From Nitrospirota bacterium (GTDB taxonomy: Bacteria > Nitrospirota > Thermodesulfovibrionia > Thermodesulfovibrionales > UBA9159), in contig CAVOUE010000004.1 of NCBI GenBank assembly GCA_963699545.1, positions 64,001-128,000 on the forward strand: a stretch of 64,000 nt of DNA. The letters are read 5' to 3'. Of the stretch, positions 21,001-30,000 are shown in pieces (position 1 is the first letter of the stretch; every line of letters starts with the position of its first letter). Position numbers: made by a program.

Positions 21001-24000
21001 TTCAGCAACCGTGCATAGGAGAAGGTCATCTCGGCGTCATCGGCATAATCCCCGACATATGCCTCCAGGTACTTAAGCGTCTCCTCACTTTTCTGAGGCG
21101 GGAGAGGGGTCAGGGATCCGTTTCCAGGGGACTTCTGATTCTGCCGGGCTGCGTCCCTGGTGAGAAGGATAGTATCGATCTGTAATGCCCTCGCTCTTCT
21201 CTTAAGCGGTGAATCCGGATACGTTTTCAAAAGCTCTGCGATGCAACGGGAGGATTCGTCAAAGCGCTCCATTCTGTTGTATGCCTGTGCCATAAAGAAG
21301 AGGGTATAGTCACCGATGACCGGGAGTCGGGCATAGGCGGTCCGGAGGCTCTCAACCGCCTCATCATACGTTCCTTTTTCCAGTAATTCCTTTCCCTTCC
21401 TGAGGGCCGAGACGGAATCAGTCGAACTTGTGCTCCGAACGCCCGCCGGGGCGGGGGAGGGGGAAAAAAGGACGCAGATAAAAAGCGCGAAGAAAAAACA
21501 CAAAAAGGGAAGCAGGAAAGATGCCTTTTTGAACGGGTATTCTCTTGTGCGACGGTGGTATCTATATCTTTTCATGTGCATCCGCTGAAAAAAAATCATT
21601 CAGAAGTCGTTTCCATTATATCAGTTACCCGTGCCGGATTCAACAGAAATAGGCACTTTGCTTATCAAGATCGTCAAGGAGGAGATTTGACGGTTCCCCT
21701 CCATACAATTTATAATCCACCATGGACCGCGCCGTAAGGAGAAGGATCCGCAAGCATATTGACGCTTCTTTCGAGGACATGGAGGATCTTGTCGCCATCG
21801 AGAAAAAAGTGAGGATATCCGTGAATGGCAGAGAGATCGTCGGTCTTTTTTGCACGCCGCACATGGTAAAGGAACTCGTGGTTGGTCTTTTAATGACCGA
21901 GGGGATCATCAGGGGAAACTGGTGTGCCGACAGGATGAGCATTCTGTTCGGCGAGGAGGTCCTCGTGGACGTCCCTGCGGAAGGAGAGGTTATTACCGAA
22001 GGGAAGACCATTACCTCGGGGTGTGCGGGCGGCGTCACCTTCGAGAAGAAGATCGATGCGGGAACGATAACGGACCCTTTCACCATCGACAGGAACAGTT
22101 TGAGGTACATTTTTAGCGATTTCCAGGCGCGGTCGGAACTCTATAAGCTGACGGGTTGCGTCCACAGTGCGGCGCTTTCTGACGGGAAGGTTATCCTCTG
22201 TTTCGCCGAGGACATTGGAAGGCACAATGCAGTGGATAAGGTCATCGGTTACGCGCTCCTCGAAAATATTCCTTTTTCGGGAAAGATCCTGCTGGCCAGC
22301 GGGAGGATATCCTCAGAGATATCCTCCAAGTGTTCCCGGTGGGGCATCCCCATCCTCGCGACGCGCACGGCACCCACCAATCTCGCCGTGGAGATCGCGG
22401 AGAAGAGAGGCGTCACCGTCGTCGGGTTCGTGAGGGGCAACCGGTTCAATGTATATACACACCCGGAAAGGATAACGTAGAGAAGATCACCAGTCTGTCC
22501 TCCTATTTCGACAACTCGATCCCTTCTTATCTTAGCTTATTCCGTTCTTCAAAGAACCTCTGCAAATTTCGGGCAGATGAGTTATAATGATCATAGCGAC
22601 CATTATGATTGATATGGTAGAGACTTTAAGGAGGTTTCAGTATGTTGAAAAAGATATCCGCGATAAAAGTCAGACAGAACCTCGGGCAGGTGATGAACGA
22701 GGTTGCTCTCAAGGAGGACGAGTATATTGTTGAAAGGGCCGGCAAACCCTTAGTGGCGATAATACCGATTGACCAGTATCAGCGCCTGAGGGGCGAGAGG
22801 GAAGATTTTTTTAGAATGGTGGGTGAAATACAGCAGGAGGCTGTTCGGTCAGACAGAAAGATTGTTGACTCGGAGATCGAAGAGGCGGTTAAGGCCTATC
22901 GGAAGTCCAAGAGCAAGACGAGGAAATGACAAGAGTCGTCATCGACGCCAACCAGTTCGTAAGCGCCCTGCTCAAACCTGAATCCAACCCCGCCGATGTT
23001 CTTGCACTTGCGCGCCAGGGTAAGATTCAGCTGGTCATATCGCCTGAAATTGTTGATGAGATGAGGGCGGTGCTCCTCTACCCCAAAATCATGAAGCGCC
23101 ATCGCAGGACTTCAGCGCAGATCGAACTCTTTCTGAAGAGATTGCTGAAGACCGCGGCTGTCACTCATAGCGGGCCGAGGCTCGATGTTGTCAAGGACGA
23201 CCCTTCAGACAACAAATATCTGGAATGTGCTGTGGTGGGCAGGGCGGATTTCATTGTCTCAGGGGACAGTCACCTCACTGACCTGGGGACCTTCCGTGGC
23301 ATAAAGATAGTGACCCCGGCGCGTTTCCTGAGAACCATTAAAGAAATAAAGTAGCCTGTCCCCTTTTCAGTTCTTCCTGGCCACGTGCACGGCGCCCACC
23401 AATCTCGCCGTGGAGATCGCGGAGAAGAGAGGCGTCACCGTCGTCGGGTTCGTGAGGGGCAATCGGTTCAATGTGTATACACGTCCGGAGAGGATCGTTT
23501 AGGAGTCAAGGGCAGGACTTTTTAAGCCGCAGAGGAATCTACCTGATAACTCGCACGGCAGCTATCTCTCTAAATGTTTCTATGTCCGATAGTAATGCTG
23601 AGAGTCCGCAAAGGTATTCAGTCGAATCAAGGGCATTGCTTCTTTCCACCACACAAAGCATAATAAGAGCATGAAAGTGGTGGAAAAAGATAAGGTCATA
23701 AGTGGGATGCTTCGCGATGAACTCAAGCGTTGTCAGGAGATGTTTGACAGACTTGAGAAGTCCGTATCTAAACTTCCGAAAGGTGTGATAAGCGAGAGGA
23801 AAAAGCGCTACAAGGATAAGGTGTATTCTTACTATTACCTGAAGTATCGTGAAGGGGAGAAAGTTATCGGCAAGCATATACCTAATAAGGAGATGCAGGA
23901 GATTTTAGAAAAGCTTGCCATGAGGAAAAAATATGAGAAGGAAATGCAGTCCTACGAAAAGAAAATTGCCTATCTGAATAAGATACTGCAAGCAGGCAGA

Positions 24001-27000: not shown

Positions 27001-30000
27001 TGTGGTGGAAATGATGAAAGCAAAATTGTTCTCTGCGCGCGAAAAGAAGGATCTAACAAAGAGCTGTCAATCCTTGGGATGTGTTTAATAACGGGATGTG
27101 TCCCTAATATTTTATGTGTACACACACCCGGAGAGGATCGTTTAGGAGTCAAGGGCAGGACTTTTCAAGCCGCAGAGGACTCCACCTGATACTCGACACC
27201 ACAGACAATCTCGCCAAGAGTGTTGAGTTCCAAAAAAAACTGTTACATTCAAGGTCCTCTATTCCCCCCACGCTAAGATTAAAGACCTGACCCTCTCTCC
27301 TCTCTCTCAATAGACGGGCGTCCTACCTGTCGGTAGAGTAGAGAAGTGGAAATGTTGACAGAATGAGGGCCGTTGCCGTTCCCTTTCCGAACAACACTTG
27401 GCTTGTCATTGCAGAAATTAAAGGACTCTTTCAGGGGTTGACCTCCAGCAATAGTTTCAGTTGCTCAAGTATTCCCGCTGCGATAAGACTGCCTGCGGTA
27501 CCCTCTAGAATGCTCCTGATGGTATGTAGGCTCTCCATGATAATCTTCGTCTTAGGTTTCGGAGAGTTCGCCTGCGTTTCAGCCGTGGCAATCTCAGCAG
27601 AGAGTTCGTTTCTTATCTCAGGGGCCAGGTTCAGGCCGGCGACCGTCCTTTTTATCTCCTTCAAAACCGACAAGACCTTCGCCACGTCGAGCTCGTTGAC
27701 GGTCATCGTCTGCGAGGAATTCCGAGTGCCTTGCTGAAGCTGAGAATGCATCATGCTCCCTATGTAGGTCTGTATATGGTAAACATTTGACGCCGCAACA
27801 CGTTGTTCTTCCTTCGTGAAGGTCAAGTCTTCTCCAAGGATGCCATCTTGTTCCAACTTCAATGCCCATTTCAGAACCGCATTTCGTACGGCATCAATTA
27901 TCTTGGCAAGATCTGTAACGCTGATTTGAAGCACTGGCTGTACAGAAGCCCCACCCATTGCAGACCTCAGCGACTCCTCCATCTTCTTCTCAAATTCAGT
28001 CCAGATGACGGTCTCTGCATTTGCTTCTTTTTGTAGGCTGGCTATCTCCGAGATCGGCTGGTTAAAATTCATCGTGGATATTTTCTCAGCTTTTCCCGGG
28101 TCAGGAATCCTCACGGGTACGAGACCCTGAACTCGGTCCAGACACTTCAGAGAGCCTATGACCTTGCGATAGTGAGGTATTTTGTTGTCTTTTTTGTATC
28201 CGTTCAACTCAAGTTCGATCCATTCTTGAAACTCCTGTACCCCGATCTTCGTCGCAACGGCGAGCGCCTTTCGGAGAAGATCTGTAACCGGCACCGTCGA
28301 ATCTATCGCTTCTTTCTGTAGCTCCAGAACCAATGAAGACATTCCTATGCCTGCCCCTTCATTTTCTCGATGATCTTCATGGTCTCCACTCTGACGGTGC
28401 AGACCCGTCGGGGGTGACGGATTTTCCGTTTGTCCCAAGCAGGGAGATTTCGGTCACGAGTTCGAGTCTTTCTTATGGGCGTATTTGTTCAAGAGATTGT
28501 AGGATGCATTTCTGACCGTGGTCTCGTTCCTTGATCCTCCGAATTGGTGGATTCGGTCGAGCTTGGCATAATACTGATTGATGAGCTGAATAGACAACGA
28601 CTATCTTTTCTCCCTTTTCATATGCAACAACGTAGTCACTCAAAATTGTACTACAAAGGGAATAGGACATTCCATATTTTTCAGGACATTCAAGCATGGG
28701 GACCTTGGGTGTGGTTCTCGATATTAAAGGTGAGCTTTTTAGGGCTGATTAAGTTCTTCTTGAGTGAAGTCTGAAGACCTGACCATCAGGCGTCTCCTTA
28801 AGGGGATCGGCGGAAGACGACGGCTGCCCGTTCTATCGTCACAAGAGACAGTTCAATTTCGCCAGCAGCCCTGAGGCTATCAGACTGCCCGCGGTGCCTT
28901 CCAGAATGTTCCTGACTGTGTGGAGGCTTTCCCTGATGATCCTATACTTGGGCTTCGGGGACTTCGCCTGCGTTTCCGCCGTGGCGATCTCGGCGTCAAG
29001 CTCGTCCTTCGTCTCGCGGGGCAGGTTAATATCCGCCACGGCTTTCTTGATCTCGTCCAGGACCGACAGGACTTTCGAAACGTCCAGTTCATTGACGGTC
29101 ATCGACTGGCTGCTGTCGCGGGTGTCCTGCTGGAGCTGAGACTGCGTCATGCTGCCGATATAGGTTCCGATGTGATAGGTTCCGGATGATGCTGCGTGCT
29201 TCTCTTTCAGCGTAAAGGTCATGTTCTCCCCGGTGATGCCATCCTCTTCGAGCTTTAGCGTCCAGTTGAGGATGACGTTTCTGACTGAGTCAATTATTCC
29301 TCGCAAAACCGAAGGATCGATAATGAGGGCGGGCTTGAGGGCGGCAGCACCCTGGAGTTCGATCAGCATTTGCTCCTGGTCAGGCGGATAACTCATGACA
29401 ATGATGCTCGACTTGTCGTTTGTCAGAAGCGATTCCAGTTCTCCCACTGCTTGGCCCTGAGGATAGCATGAGACCACTTCGGCAAGCTTTGCTGGGAGAC
29501 GAAATTCAATCCAGCCGTTAAAAGGGTTCCAGCACCTTACCTGTCCCCTGACATTTCGATACTCGGGGATGGCAAGTCCCTTGCTGTATCCGCCAAGTTC
29601 CGACTCCGCCCAGAGCTGAAACTCCTTTATCCCCAACTTTCTGGCAACGACGAGCGCCTTGCGGAGAAGATCGGTGATCTGCACTTTCGAGTCGAGCGAT
29701 TCTCTTTGAAGTTCCAGTACCAGTGATCCCATGTTCAATCTTACTACAAACGGGTCTTTTTCCTCTATCTCCCATTGAGTGCGCTGCAATCTTTCCGGTA
29801 TAGATGTCACCTGAAAGTCCTCACCTTAGACCAATCGCCAAGGACGTTGATTACCAGAAATAATTGTCACACTGGAGGATCCATTATGCAGCTTCTTAAT
29901 GCCTTCATAGAATCCTACTGGAATCACTCTGGAATCCCCATTGACCTTATTGTCAAGAAGGTGTAGATTTGAAATAACCATCACATCATAGGGTCATCCC

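What a model noticed while it worked through the whole genome (the two positions that open the first line are those of the whole stretch)
21722..27212. Tandem array of toxin-antitoxin cassettes bounded by copies of the fdhD 3' end
Directly after fdhD lie four cassettes of 1.0-1.35 kb, each bounded by a 103-nt direct repeat. The first repeat is joined to a 121-nt duplicate of the fdhD 3' end. The cassettes carry Phd/PIN, a 120-aa gene with an NTP_transf_8 gene, two unknown small genes, and CopG. The pattern fits repeated site-specific insertion of integrase-less cassettes at the fdhD 3' end.
Evidence so far: find_repeats gives D1 as 4 x 103 nt (spacing 1352, 1017 and 1274) and D3 as 121 nt at 93% identity. 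The sequences show an alternative fdhD end in the repeats. Pfam content is from call 99. No integron integrase was found. A second copy of the 120-aa/NTP_transf_8 cassette with the same ends lies at C5:353579-354832, and empty end-pairs occur at four loci.
(Added by a program. Inside this text positions count along the whole contig: contig position 64,001 is position 1 of the stretch shown here. "Call 12" and the like, gene names such as g00115 and contig names such as C1 are that model's own, and its searches are not shown. The text may have been shortened before it was handed on; [...] marks where a part breaks off. The agent that wrote the report below was given it as the finding of a first reader that could run no searches.)

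Follow-up and report, generated by a model that had tools for sequence, protein, structure and literature searches.

The report
Integrase-less toxin-antitoxin cassette array after fdhD
Four small toxin-antitoxin modules sit in a row behind the fdhD gene, each separated by a copy of the end of that gene, and the pattern recurs at other genes and in related bacteria, pointing to a way of stacking mobile cassettes that needs no integrase of its own.

Summary
Four ~76-103-nt direct repeats (R1-R4) and a 121-nt duplicate of the fdhD 3' end separate four type II TA-like cassettes. They open a 15.5-kb TA/defence island that is absent between fdhD and the convergent NtrC-like gene in one same-genus genome.

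The repeats are not integron attC sites, and no integron integrase was found. R occurs only at this locus. Two cassettes are discrete units with a ~70-nt left end starting ACCTGA. Their right end is a copy of a genome-wide REP-like motif whose RAYT gene lies on contig C3. One of these cassettes has a 97.7% identical copy on contig C5.

The same layout (gene 3' end, insert, copy of that end) recurs at four or more other genes here. It also occurs in other Nitrospirota contigs that carry the same cassettes.

In four of seven gene-end comparisons the differences are mostly synonymous, so those copies are diverged functional alleles rather than decayed target duplications.

Best reading, at 0.45: cassette-plus-gene-end circles integrate by homology, and REP/RAYT helps to form the circles. 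A recombinase acting in trans is not excluded. I rate it a new variant of a known kind, interest 0.6.

The parts
21722..22480 (+). fdhD (252 aa). Its last 121 nt (22353-22473) are copy A of the duplicated gene end.
   Evidence: Pfam FdhD-NarQ, E 5e-68. The C-terminus THPERIT* matches both same-genus orthologues.
22474..23374 (+). Cassette 1: Phd/YefM antitoxin (22642-22929) and PIN_3 toxin (22926-23354).
   Evidence: Pfam and NCBIfam hits. In two metagenome runs, contig pieces matching this cassette start at 22550.
23375..23540 (+). R1. It comprises a 121-nt copy B of the fdhD end (alternative end RPERIV*), then about 45 nt of non-coding sequence, and ends just before ACCTGA.
   Evidence: A 150-nt contig from an independent run spans 23356-23505.
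23541..24810 (+). Cassette 2, a discrete mobile unit. Parts: left end LE (23541-~23613), 120-aa gene (23671-24033), NTP_transf_8 gene (24011-24694), REP-like right end (core 24790-24801).
   Evidence: 97.7% identical copy at C5:353578-354850. LE family found by nhmmer. Pfam PF12281. The empty site in G002 ends at GGTGTGCA. Relatives with a conserved LE are L073 and L075.
24811..24892 (+). R2. The fdhD-like part starts only about 17 nt before ATGTGTATAC and is fused directly to the REP tail of cassette 2.
24893..25800 (+). Cassette 3: RelE/ParE-family (Gp49) toxin (25101-25427) and a 107-aa HTH-like partner (25437-25760). Its first ~60 nt are homologous to the sequence after R4.
25801..25909 (+). 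R3. Its left boundary is approximate.
25910..26891 (+). Cassette 4: BrnT (26086-26352) and BrnA (26369-26641). It starts ACCTGAAAGTCC and ends in a REP-like motif (core 26867-26878).
   Evidence: Pieces at 94-98% identity occur in four metagenome runs and in L077/L078, with the left end at 25906-25910.
26892..27113 (+). Fragment of a second cassette 2: the last ~212 nt plus its REP (core 27093-27104). It is fused to the REP tail of cassette 4.
   Evidence: D2/D4, 97%. The match extends to 367 columns at 88%.
27114..27183 (+). R4. It starts at ATGTGTAC, fused directly to a REP tail. It is the copy closest to the consensus of the four.
27184..27245 (+). Sequence after R4. It starts ACCTGATACTCG and is homologous to the start of cassette 3.
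27431..29810 (-). Two AbiTii paralogues (27431-28438 and 28839-29810), part of the same island.
   Evidence: Pfam PF18864, E 4e-43 and 7e-41.
30231..36345 (+). Two large genes of a TPR-GreAB-C-PIN type conflict system (1395 aa and 645 aa).
   Evidence: Pfam PF24407, PF20698 and PF24388.
36425..36752 (-). Displaced copy B of the 3' end of the NtrC-like gene. It retains an 84-aa HTH_8 reading frame.
   Evidence: D1/D7 at 91%; Pfam; codon analysis.
36767..37436 (-). VapC-like PIN (37038-37436) and a FitA/VapB-like RHH protein (36767-37024), lying between the two NtrC-end copies.
37895..38220 (-). Copy A of the NtrC-like 3' end, attached to the gene. Position 37955 is the right border of the island relative to G001.

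Best explanation
The array was built by repeated accretion of small TA cassettes at the end of fdhD, guided by homology to the gene end rather than by a dedicated integrase.

Proposed steps:
1. A cassette with defined ends (left end starting ACCTGA, right end a REP-like motif) comes to lie just downstream of a gene.
2. A circular molecule forms that holds the cassette plus a variable stretch of the upstream gene end. For REP-ended cassettes, the REP tail is joined directly to a point inside the gene end. The genome's REP-associated Y1 transposase (RAYT) is the candidate enzyme for this join.
3. After transfer, or in a sister genome, the circle integrates by a single crossover within the homologous gene end (Campbell-type). 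This leaves gene end, cassette, second allele of the gene end, older content.
4. Repeating the process stacks cassettes separated by R.

Shown: the anatomy, the discrete mobile cassettes, the REP-tail fusions, the recurrence at other genes and genomes, and the allele-like divergence of the repeat copies.

Inferred: the circular intermediate, RecA-type integration, and the involvement of RAYT.
For: 1. Island status. In same-genus G001, fdhD is followed after about 120 nt by the gene that lies at window 37955 here.

2. R is not part of the cassette. The C5 copy of cassette 2 lacks R, and R is unique to this locus.

3. Boundary pattern. The right boundary of R is fixed, just before ACCTGA. The left boundary varies: about 121, 45, 17 and 0 nt before ATGTGTA. 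The same rule holds in the glyoxalase array on C6.

4. Recurrence of the layout 'gene 3' end, insert, copy of that end':
- NtrC-like gene, 328 nt, 91%.
- C6 glyoxalase gene, 3 copies, with Fic and HicAB-like (my reading of the translations; no family hit) inserts.
- C6 P-type ATPase gene, 573 nt, 94%, around a RAYT gene.
- C3 601-aa gene.
- Other genomes: SpoU end in L064, a three- to four-copy array in L063, also L058 and L068, and L077.

5. Allele-like divergence. Codon differences between repeat copies are mostly synonymous for fdhD (7:3), NtrC-like (17:8) and the L077 gene (13:4), and for the P-ATPase (17:8). The first three pooled give 37:15, with p=1e-5 even against a 0.41 synonymous fraction.

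6. REP-tail fusions. The REP tail is fused directly to the duplicated segment in 4 of 4 REP-ended junctions: 24810|24811, 27113|27114, ~26891|26892, and L077 ~854|855.

7. No common site. No shared, positioned core was found at nine junctions.

8. Mobility. The BrnTA cassette is 94-98% identical in other metagenomes, where pieces overlapping fdhD are only 88-92% identical.

9. Enzymatic plausibility. E. coli TnpA-REP cleaves 5' or 3' of REPs with limited site specificity, transfers strands, and is modelled to excise ssDNA circles (PMC3333891, passages read).
Against: - No circular form or excision joint was seen. The source reads were not available, and the four runs that were laid are contigs holding 10% of the sampled words or less.
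- Three of seven repeat comparisons are not biased towards synonymous change: glyoxalase 1:3 and 2:4, SpoU 3:8. Some duplicates may therefore have arisen in place and decayed.
- The 'REP' is a weak palindrome, with a 4-bp stem and a folding z-score near 0.
- The RAYT flanked by the motif scores 73.6 bits, below the NCBIfam cut-off of 80.
- Cassettes 1 and 3 and the VapBC-like insert have no REP end.
- Most relatives of cassette 2 (about 13 of 17 loci with flanks on both sides, by my tally) have no flanking repeat.
- Neither R nor an fdhD-end duplicate was found in the other genomes searched.
- The synonymous bias fits equally well an att site that mimics the gene end and is used by a recombinase acting in trans.
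Confidence: 0.45

Rival explanations
1. Site-specific integration by a recombinase supplied in trans. Each cassette circle carries an attP that mimics the fdhD end, and a tyrosine recombinase or similar enzyme encoded elsewhere, or on a lost helper element, crosses over at a core in R. This would resemble accretion of cis-mobilizable elements at a gene 3' end.
For: The count of five cores for four cassettes fits attL/attR logic. All copies share a 10-12-nt palindrome (TGTGTATACACA; TGTATATACA in fdhD itself). One G001 contig ends exactly at ...GTCTATAC inside fdhD. The element-borne gene end would be under selection, which would explain the synonymous bias. Six PF00589 matches, representing about five recombinase genes, exist elsewhere in the genome. 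[quoted passage not shown]
Against: No recombinase lies in or beside the island. The same layout occurs at six or more unrelated gene ends without a shared, positioned core. Repeat lengths range from 76 to 573 nt and left ends vary. The same cassettes (BrnTA, NTP_transf_8) sit next to different gene ends in different genomes. The palindrome lies in coding sequence and is absent from the G001 and G002 orthologues.
Confidence: 0.2
2. Duplication in place followed by cassette replacement. REP-associated or illegitimate unequal exchange tandemly duplicated a unit of the form [fdhD-end fragment, R, cassette, REP]. Later recombination at the conserved cassette ends then swapped the cargo.
For: A 367-column duplicate comprises the cassette-2 3' end, its REP, R and the next ~60 nt (24589-24953 vs 26892-27245). 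REP tails lie at the join points. The glyoxalase and SpoU repeat copies show no synonymous bias. REPs at the join points of tandem duplications are known in enterobacteria (recalled; paper not seen).
Against: The fdhD, NtrC-like, P-ATPase and L077 repeat copies differ mostly at synonymous sites. In L077 the copies are only 84% identical, while the cassette between them is 94% identical to the one here. This model also needs several extra replacement events.
Confidence: 0.2
3. Long target-site duplications made by the insertion reaction itself, through staggered cuts about 20-570 nt apart.
For: The duplicates derive from whatever gene lies at the insertion site.
Against: No flanking duplication exists at the six left-end/REP elements tested (8 junction comparisons in all; best case 25 of 500 shuffles). 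About 13 of 17 relatives of cassette 2 (my tally) lack flanking repeats. The copies are allele-like. As far as I recall, no known bacterial transposition reaction makes duplications of this length.
Confidence: 0.05
4. Assembly artefact: strain variants of the fdhD-downstream region concatenated in one contig.
For: The genome appears to be metagenome-derived: 13 contigs, 87% complete, 5% contamination. Short-read relatives break at this locus.
Against: The junctions REP tail | gene fragment need real reads, because the sequences on the two sides of each junction are unrelated. An independent run holds a contig across 23356-23505. The same layout is seen in at least five independent assemblies.
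Confidence: 0.05

Closest known systems
Tandem accretion of integrative elements and cis-mobilizable elements (CIMEs) at the 3' end of a gene (ICESt1/ICESt3-type; reviewed in PMC5704250, passages read)
   Same: [quoted passage not shown] Newer units add next to older ones.
   Different: Here the units are only about 1 kb and are not decayed ICEs or IMEs. No cognate integrase or helper element was found. The repeats vary in length at one side. The phenomenon occurs at many unrelated genes, so a single att specificity is unlikely.
Chromosomal integrons and CALINs (attC clusters without an integrase) (recalled; no paper read)
   Same: An array of roughly 1-kb cassettes, all on one strand and rich in TA modules, separated by repeats of about 60-130 nt. 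No integrase lies next to the array.
   Different: The repeats do not fold as attC hairpins. They consist of a gene 3' end plus its downstream sequence. They are unique to one locus. No IntI was found.
REP / BIME sequences with their RAYT (TnpA-REP), 'REPtron' (PMC3333891, passages read; PMC2817692, abstract in search listing)
   Same: A short motif is present in tens of copies. A Y1-transposase gene is flanked by inverted copies of the motif. The published model includes ssDNA circles and tandem amplification.
   Different: The motif has only a 4-bp stem. Here it forms the right end of gene-carrying cassettes and sits at junctions with duplicated gene ends, which to my knowledge has not been described for REPs (searches found nothing of the kind).
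IS26 translocatable units and IS26-bounded arrays (recalled; no paper read)
   Same: A circle holding cargo plus one copy of the repeat integrates next to a resident copy of the repeat, in part by homologous recombination. This builds arrays of alternating repeat and cargo.
   Different: Here the repeat is a host gene end, not an insertion sequence that encodes a transposase.
IS200/IS605-family non-autonomous elements (PATEs) (recalled; PMC6006769, abstract in search listing)
   Same: The cassettes have different left and right ends, no terminal inverted repeats and no target duplication. A Y1 HUH enzyme is encoded elsewhere in the genome.
   Different: The left and right ends are unrelated to each other. 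Neither folds better than shuffled sequence. No conserved 4-5-nt target was seen at the left flanks.

Membership tests
Integron / CALIN | attC sites: imperfect inverted repeats that fold into a hairpin as single strands | tested here: not met
   Six folds (the four repeats on the + strand, two of them also on the - strand) gave z-scores from -0.89 to +1.15 against shuffles.
Integron / CALIN | Integron integrase IntI (needed for an integron, not for a CALIN) | tested here: not met
   TIGR02249 scores at best 70.8 bits against a cut-off of 265, in a genome about 87% complete.
[quoted passage not shown] | Units flanked by direct repeats that include the 3' end of the target gene | tested here: met
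[quoted passage not shown] | A cognate integrase (on a helper element) with a defined core site | tested here: inconclusive
   No recombinase lies in the island. Six PF00589 matches lie elsewhere in the genome; their specificity is unknown. No shared core was found across loci.
REP with RAYT (REPtron) | High-copy short extragenic motif | tested here: met
   47 sites with at most 1 mismatch to GGGATGTGTCCC, of which 35 have the A-rich 5' flank.
REP with RAYT (REPtron) | Y1 transposase gene flanked by inverted copies of the motif | tested here: met
   PF01797 match at C3:267809-268141. The motif lies at C3:267489(-) and C3:268223(+).
REP with RAYT (REPtron) | Protein passes the curated RAYT model | tested here: inconclusive
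   For NF047646, the C3 copy scores 73.6 bits (cut-off 80) and the C6 copy 93 bits.
REP with RAYT (REPtron) | Stable stem-loop | tested here: not met
   4-bp stem, -2.5 kcal/mol, z = 0.26.
IS200/IS605-type non-autonomous element | Related subterminal hairpins at both ends and a fixed 4-5-nt target 5' of the left end | tested here: not met
   The left end does not fold better than shuffles. The last bases of the left flanks differ between copies.
MITE | Terminal inverted repeats and a target-site duplication | tested here: not met
   No flanking duplication above chance in 8 junction comparisons (six elements plus the two cassette-4 right ends). No inverted repeat pairs the two cassette ends in the region.
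Type II toxin-antitoxin modules (cargo) | Adjacent small genes matching known toxin and antitoxin families | tested here: met
   Phd + PIN_3 and BrnT + BrnA are matched pairs. For the RelE/ParE(Gp49) cassette only the toxin is matched (its partner has just a weak, below-cut-off HTH hit). The 120-aa + NTP_transf_8 pair is only TA-like: the 120-aa partner has no family above cut-off.

The most novel reading that the evidence does not exclude
Nitrospirota may carry a cassette-capture system that works like an integron but without integrase or attC. A domesticated Y1 transposase (RAYT) would cut at the REP-like right end of TA and defence cassettes and join it to a nearby point in the upstream host gene. 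The released circle would carry its own homing sequence, the gene end. Such circles would then integrate by homology at the same gene in other cells. The result would be arrays of defence cassettes behind housekeeping genes, with the gene kept intact.
Probability: 0.2. Interest if true: 0.85.

Novelty: new variant of a known kind. Interest (0 to 1): 0.6.

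Why it matters
Stacking of gene cassettes is so far tied to dedicated recombinases such as integron integrases, ICE/IME integrases and IS26. Here about 1-kb TA cassettes, and a whole 15.5-kb defence island, accumulate behind intact housekeeping genes with no such enzyme in sight. The same architecture is seen at several genes in this genome and in other Nitrospirota assemblies.

If the gene-end copy acts as a portable homology arm, this would be a simple, general route for spreading defence and addiction modules within uncultured lineages. If REP/RAYT makes the circles, it would also give a concrete genomic role to REP/RAYT pairs, whose function is still debated.

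There is a practical consequence too. Short-read assemblies break at these loci, as in the same-genus contig that ends inside fdhD.

Tried and rejected
- attC or integron reading: rejected on folding and on the IntI model.
- Known RNA family in window 21000-38500: none at E<=1.
- R elsewhere in the genome: none.
- R or the left end (LE) in 18 other genomes of the family, including two of the same genus: 0 of 18.
- Exact scans for a 23-nt R word in metagenome contigs and a 23-nt LE word in genome contigs: 0 hits each.
- Extra copies of the fdhD end in G001 and G002: only the gene's own end.
- fdhD fragments in 200 other genomes of the order: four had two matches (G001, on two contigs; G038, G162 and G176, not inspected) and the rest at most one. 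Fragments shorter than about 40 aa would be missed.
- Target duplication or a duplicated att core at the LE-REP elements: not above chance.
- Apparent R-like sequence upstream of the C5:352353 element: not significant.
- LE-type ACCTGA start at other REP-ended TA loci: not found.
- REP as a marker of TA cassettes: only 5 of 20 other REP loci have clear TA genes within 1.6 kb, and the rest are housekeeping genes.
- Flanking repeats around BrnA relatives in metagenomes of all phyla: 3 of 45 loci with enough flank. The feature is therefore not general for BrnTA. My filter also left out L077.
- Shared core at nine junctions: none that is positioned. Only a purine-rich GAGAAG word occurs in 4 of 9 windows, at varying offsets.
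- Hairpin stability of LE and REP: not better than shuffles.
- Read laying: no contig of the four runs covered 24805-24991, and the 25740-25926 bin (R3 and its flanks) had next to no depth. This is no evidence of absence.
- Source reads were not identifiable: the best share of sampled words was 0.10.
- Literature searches found no description of REP-ended TA cassettes or gene-end-bounded TA arrays. Only titles and abstracts of the listed papers were seen.

Full report
**1. The observation**

The repeat finder on window 20000-29000 returns four copies of a 103-nt direct repeat at 23455, 24807, 25824 and 27098, and a 121-nt duplicate of the fdhD 3' end (22353-22473 vs 23375-23495, 93%). Aligned, the four repeats (R1-R4) share an invariant stretch...CCGGAGAGGATCGTTTAGGAGTCAAGGGCA..., and all end just before ACCTGA(T/A)A. 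Over the last 70 nt they share 63-67 of 70 positions pairwise, and R4 is closest to the consensus.

The repeats begin with a piece of the fdhD coding end. That piece reads ...YTHPERIV* (RPERIV* in R1). The gene itself ends ...THPERIT*, as do both same-genus orthologues. A profile of R finds only these four copies plus the partial match in fdhD in the whole 3.04-Mb assembly.

**2. The cargo**

All four cassettes are toxin-antitoxin type pairs on the + strand:
- Cassette 1: Phd/YefM + PIN_3.
- Cassette 2: a 120-aa protein + an NTP_transf_8 nucleotidyltransferase. This pair is only TA-like, because the partner matches no family above cut-off.
- Cassette 3: a RelE/ParE-family (Gp49) toxin + a 107-aa protein with a weak HTH hit.
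- Cassette 4: BrnT + BrnA.

**3. Not an integron**

The repeats do not fold better than shuffled sequence on either strand (z from -0.89 to +1.15). No Rfam family matches. The integron-integrase model scores at most 70.8 bits against a cut-off of 265, in a genome estimated to be 87% complete.

**4. The array opens a larger island**

In same-genus genome G001, fdhD is followed after about 120 nt by a convergent sigma-54 activator gene. Its orthologue here starts at window 37955. So 22481-37954 (about 15.5 kb) is extra. It holds:
- the four cassettes;
- two AbiTii genes;
- a TPR-GreAB-C-PIN type system;
- a fragment of the NtrC-like gene;
- a VapBC-like pair.

At this far end the same layout appears. 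The last ~265 nt of the NtrC-like gene plus ~60 nt downstream are present twice (36425-36752 and 37895-38220, 91%), with the PIN/RHH pair between them.

**5. Cassettes are discrete units, and R is not part of them**

Cassette 2 (23541-24810) has a 97.7% identical copy at C5:353578-354850, without R on either side. In same-genus G002 the homologous flank ends at GGTGTGCA, exactly where the cassette begins.

Its first ~70 nt (LE) form a family of seven copies plus one partial. Two copies carry the gene pair, four are 'empty' with LE joined to the right-end motif, and one lacks the motif. LE is conserved in front of the same gene pair in two Thermodesulfovibrionales or Nitrospirae MAG contigs (L073, L075).

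Contigs from four public metagenome runs hold single cassettes. BrnTA pieces are 97-98% identical, and in one run the left end falls at 25910, the ACCTGA. A Phd/PIN piece starts at 22550 in two runs. Cassette 2 is present at 92% identity in an 8.5-kb contig. Contig pieces overlapping fdhD in these runs are only 88-92% identical. A 150-nt contig of one run spans 23356-23505, that is, the junction of cassette 1 with R1.

**6. The right ends are a REP-like family**

The right-end motif, AAAA(T/C)GGGATGTGTCCC(T/C)AnTTaTTT, occurs 47 times with at most one mismatch to its 12-nt core. Of these, 35 have the A-rich flank. A Y1-transposase gene (PF01797) at C3:267809-268141 is flanked by two inverted copies of the motif, which is the arrangement described for RAYT and REP. 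A second RAYT on C6 passes the curated model at 93 bits against 80, while the C3 copy scores 73.6 bits.

Two caveats apply. The stem is only 4 bp and no more stable than shuffles. The motif also lies next to ordinary genes: 5 of 20 other loci have clear TA genes nearby.

**7. Junction anatomy**

The right boundary of every R is fixed. The left boundary varies: about 121 nt (R1), 45 nt (R3), 17 nt (R2) and 0 nt (R4) before ATGTGTA.

In each of the three REP-ended junctions of the array, the REP tail is fused directly to the start of a duplicated segment:
- cassette 2 to R2 (24810|24811);
- the cassette-2 fragment to R4 (27113|27114);
- cassette 4 to an internal point of cassette 2 (about 26891|26892).

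The third junction belongs to a 367-column duplicate (24589-24953 vs 26892-27245, 88%) that brackets cassettes 3 and 4.

**8. The layout recurs**

A self-comparison of the genome lists further cases:
- The last ~95 nt of a glyoxalase gene on C6 are present three times, with a Fic/DOC gene and a HicA/HicB-like pair (read from the ORF translations; Pfam gave no hit) between the copies. Again the right boundary is fixed and the left varies.
- 573 nt of a P-type ATPase gene end are present twice (94%), around a 197-aa ORF and the C6 RAYT.
- The end of a 601-aa gene on C3 flanks an epimerase gene and a 355-aa ORF.

In other assemblies that carry relatives of cassette 2, I counted flanking direct repeats of 94-135 nt in 4 of about 17 loci with flanks on both sides (my tally). 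These are L058, L063 (three copies plus a partial, with a ParE cassette), L064 and L068. In L064 the repeat is the last ~126 nt of a SpoU methylase gene.

In metagenome contig L077, a truncated BrnTA cassette that is 94% identical to the one here lies between two copies of the end of yet another gene (orthologue at G000 C5:436417-436633). An exact REP tail is fused to the second copy. L078 has the same gene end followed by the full cassette, starting at ACCTGA.

By contrast, only 3 of 45 BrnA loci from metagenomes at large have flanking repeats. fdhD-end duplicates were seen only in this genome: of 200 other genomes of the order, four had two matches (G001 on two contigs; G038, G162 and G176, not inspected) and the rest at most one.

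**9. The repeat copies are alleles**

| Gene end | Synonymous : non-synonymous codon differences |
|---|---|
| fdhD | 7 : 3 |
| NtrC-like | 17 : 8 |
| L077 gene | 13 : 4 |
| P-ATPase | 17 : 8 |
| Glyoxalase, copy 1 | 1 : 3 |
| Glyoxalase, copy 2 | 2 : 4 |
| SpoU (L064) | 3 : 8 |

The first three pooled give 37:15. That is p=1.2e-10 against an unconstrained expectation of 0.28 synonymous. It is p=1.1e-5 against 0.41, my rough estimate for one constrained copy and one free copy. With G001 as outgroup, changes on the displaced NtrC copy are 10 synonymous to 6 non-synonymous. In L077 the two copies are 84% identical, although the cassette between them is 94% identical to the one in this genome.

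Several duplicates were therefore parts of working genes in different lineages. They are not products of a target duplication made at insertion. The glyoxalase and SpoU copies show no such bias on small counts, so decay or origin in place cannot be excluded for them.

**10. Mechanism**

The simplest account that fits all of this has four steps:
1. A cassette sits just downstream of a gene, at the fixed boundary.
2. A circle forms that contains the cassette plus a variable length of the upstream gene end. This explains the variable left boundary, and the REP tail is the joining point where a REP is present.
3. The circle integrates by a single crossover in the homologous gene end of another genome.
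4. This gives gene end, cassette, second allele of the gene end, older content. Repeats of the process build the array.

For the circle-forming step, the published behaviour of E. coli TnpA-REP is relevant. It cleaves on either side of REPs with limited site specificity, transfers strands, and is modelled to excise ssDNA circles and drive tandem amplification (PMC3333891, passages read). That this genome's RAYT does so here is an inference.

No positioned common core was found at nine junctions from different loci. This argues against one sequence-specific recombinase, but it does not exclude an enzyme acting in trans at fdhD.

**11. Comparison with known systems**

The closest described process is tandem accretion of integrative elements and CIMEs at gene 3' ends (PMC5704250, passages read). 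The present case differs in four ways: unit size, the lack of any integrase, the variable repeat boundary, and the multiplicity of targets.

It resembles integron/CALIN arrays in appearance only. The REP/RAYT link is suggestive but indirect. My literature searches found no description of REP-ended TA cassettes or of TA arrays bounded by gene ends. Apart from the two papers named above, only listings and abstracts were seen.

**12. Verdict**

The finding is a real and unusual cassette array. The 'site-specific' mechanism is not supported. A homology-guided, possibly RAYT-assisted route is favoured at moderate confidence.

Noticed in passing
G000 C3:267429-268283 (locus L008): A 223-aa Y1-transposase (RAYT-like) gene is flanked by inverted copies of the GGGATGTGTCCC motif, a REPtron-like arrangement. 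Several other motif pairs lie 115-170 nt apart in divergent orientation (C3:280389/280555, 313614/313729, 495481/495621).
   Followed up: partly
G000 C6:292463-295521 (locus L009): A second RAYT (282 aa, over the NCBIfam cut-off) and a 197-aa ORF lie between two 573-nt copies (94%) of the 3' end of a P-type ATPase gene.
   Followed up: partly
G000 C6:15857-17656 (locus L025): Three copies of the last ~95 nt of a glyoxalase gene separate a Fic/DOC gene and a HicA/HicB-like pair (assigned from the translations, no Pfam hit). The repeat contains GGAACCTGATAGAG and ends in AGCCTGTCCC.
   Followed up: partly
Whole genome, e.g. window 23353-23362; C4:151547; C5:351240; C6:14486: The word AGCCTGTCCC occurs 29 times against about 6 expected, and about a dozen of these are followed by a T-run (most as CTTTT). 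It often lies just after the stop codon of small genes. Its function is unknown.
   Followed up: no
Window 27275-27304 and 28767-28796; C3:796830; L073, L075: A word AAGACCTGACC recurs after the AbiTii genes, after one REP, and downstream of cassette-2 relatives in other genomes. It may be a second end motif.
   Followed up: no
G000 C3:200830, C3:646572, C5:313577: The 11-13-nt tail after the REP core is tandemly duplicated at these sites (for example taatattttcc ac taatattttcc). This may be a footprint of some event at the REP tail.
   Followed up: no
Window 37955-39401, minus strand: The NtrC-like sigma-54 activator is read as two ORFs (227 aa with the receiver domain and the start of the AAA domain; 258 aa with the rest). 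They overlap at about 38720, which suggests a frameshift or a sequencing error.
   Followed up: no
Window 30231-36345: Two large genes (1395 aa and 645 aa) match the HTH_upstream_double_PIN, PIN-TPR-GreABC and permuted GreAB-C families. This is a predicted conflict system inside the island.
   Followed up: no
L063 (Nitrospira MAG contig VGWY01000128.1), 101-3152: An array in another genus. Copies of a 107-110-nt direct repeat starting CGGTGTCGCACCTTGAC separate an NTP_transf_8 cassette, a cassette with a 152-aa ORF, and a ParE cassette.
   Followed up: partly
G001 contig C51 (locus L004) and G002 contig C204 (locus L003): One G001 contig ends inside fdhD at ...AATGTCTATAC, the point where R4 begins here. 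The G002 contig ends about 150 nt after fdhD in what I recognise (from recall) as a sequencing-adapter word.
   Followed up: no
Nine junction windows: A purine-rich word (A)GAGAAG lies near 4 of 9 junctions (fdhD copy A, glyoxalase, SpoU, P-ATPase), at different offsets. It is weakly above shuffles and unexplained.
   Followed up: no
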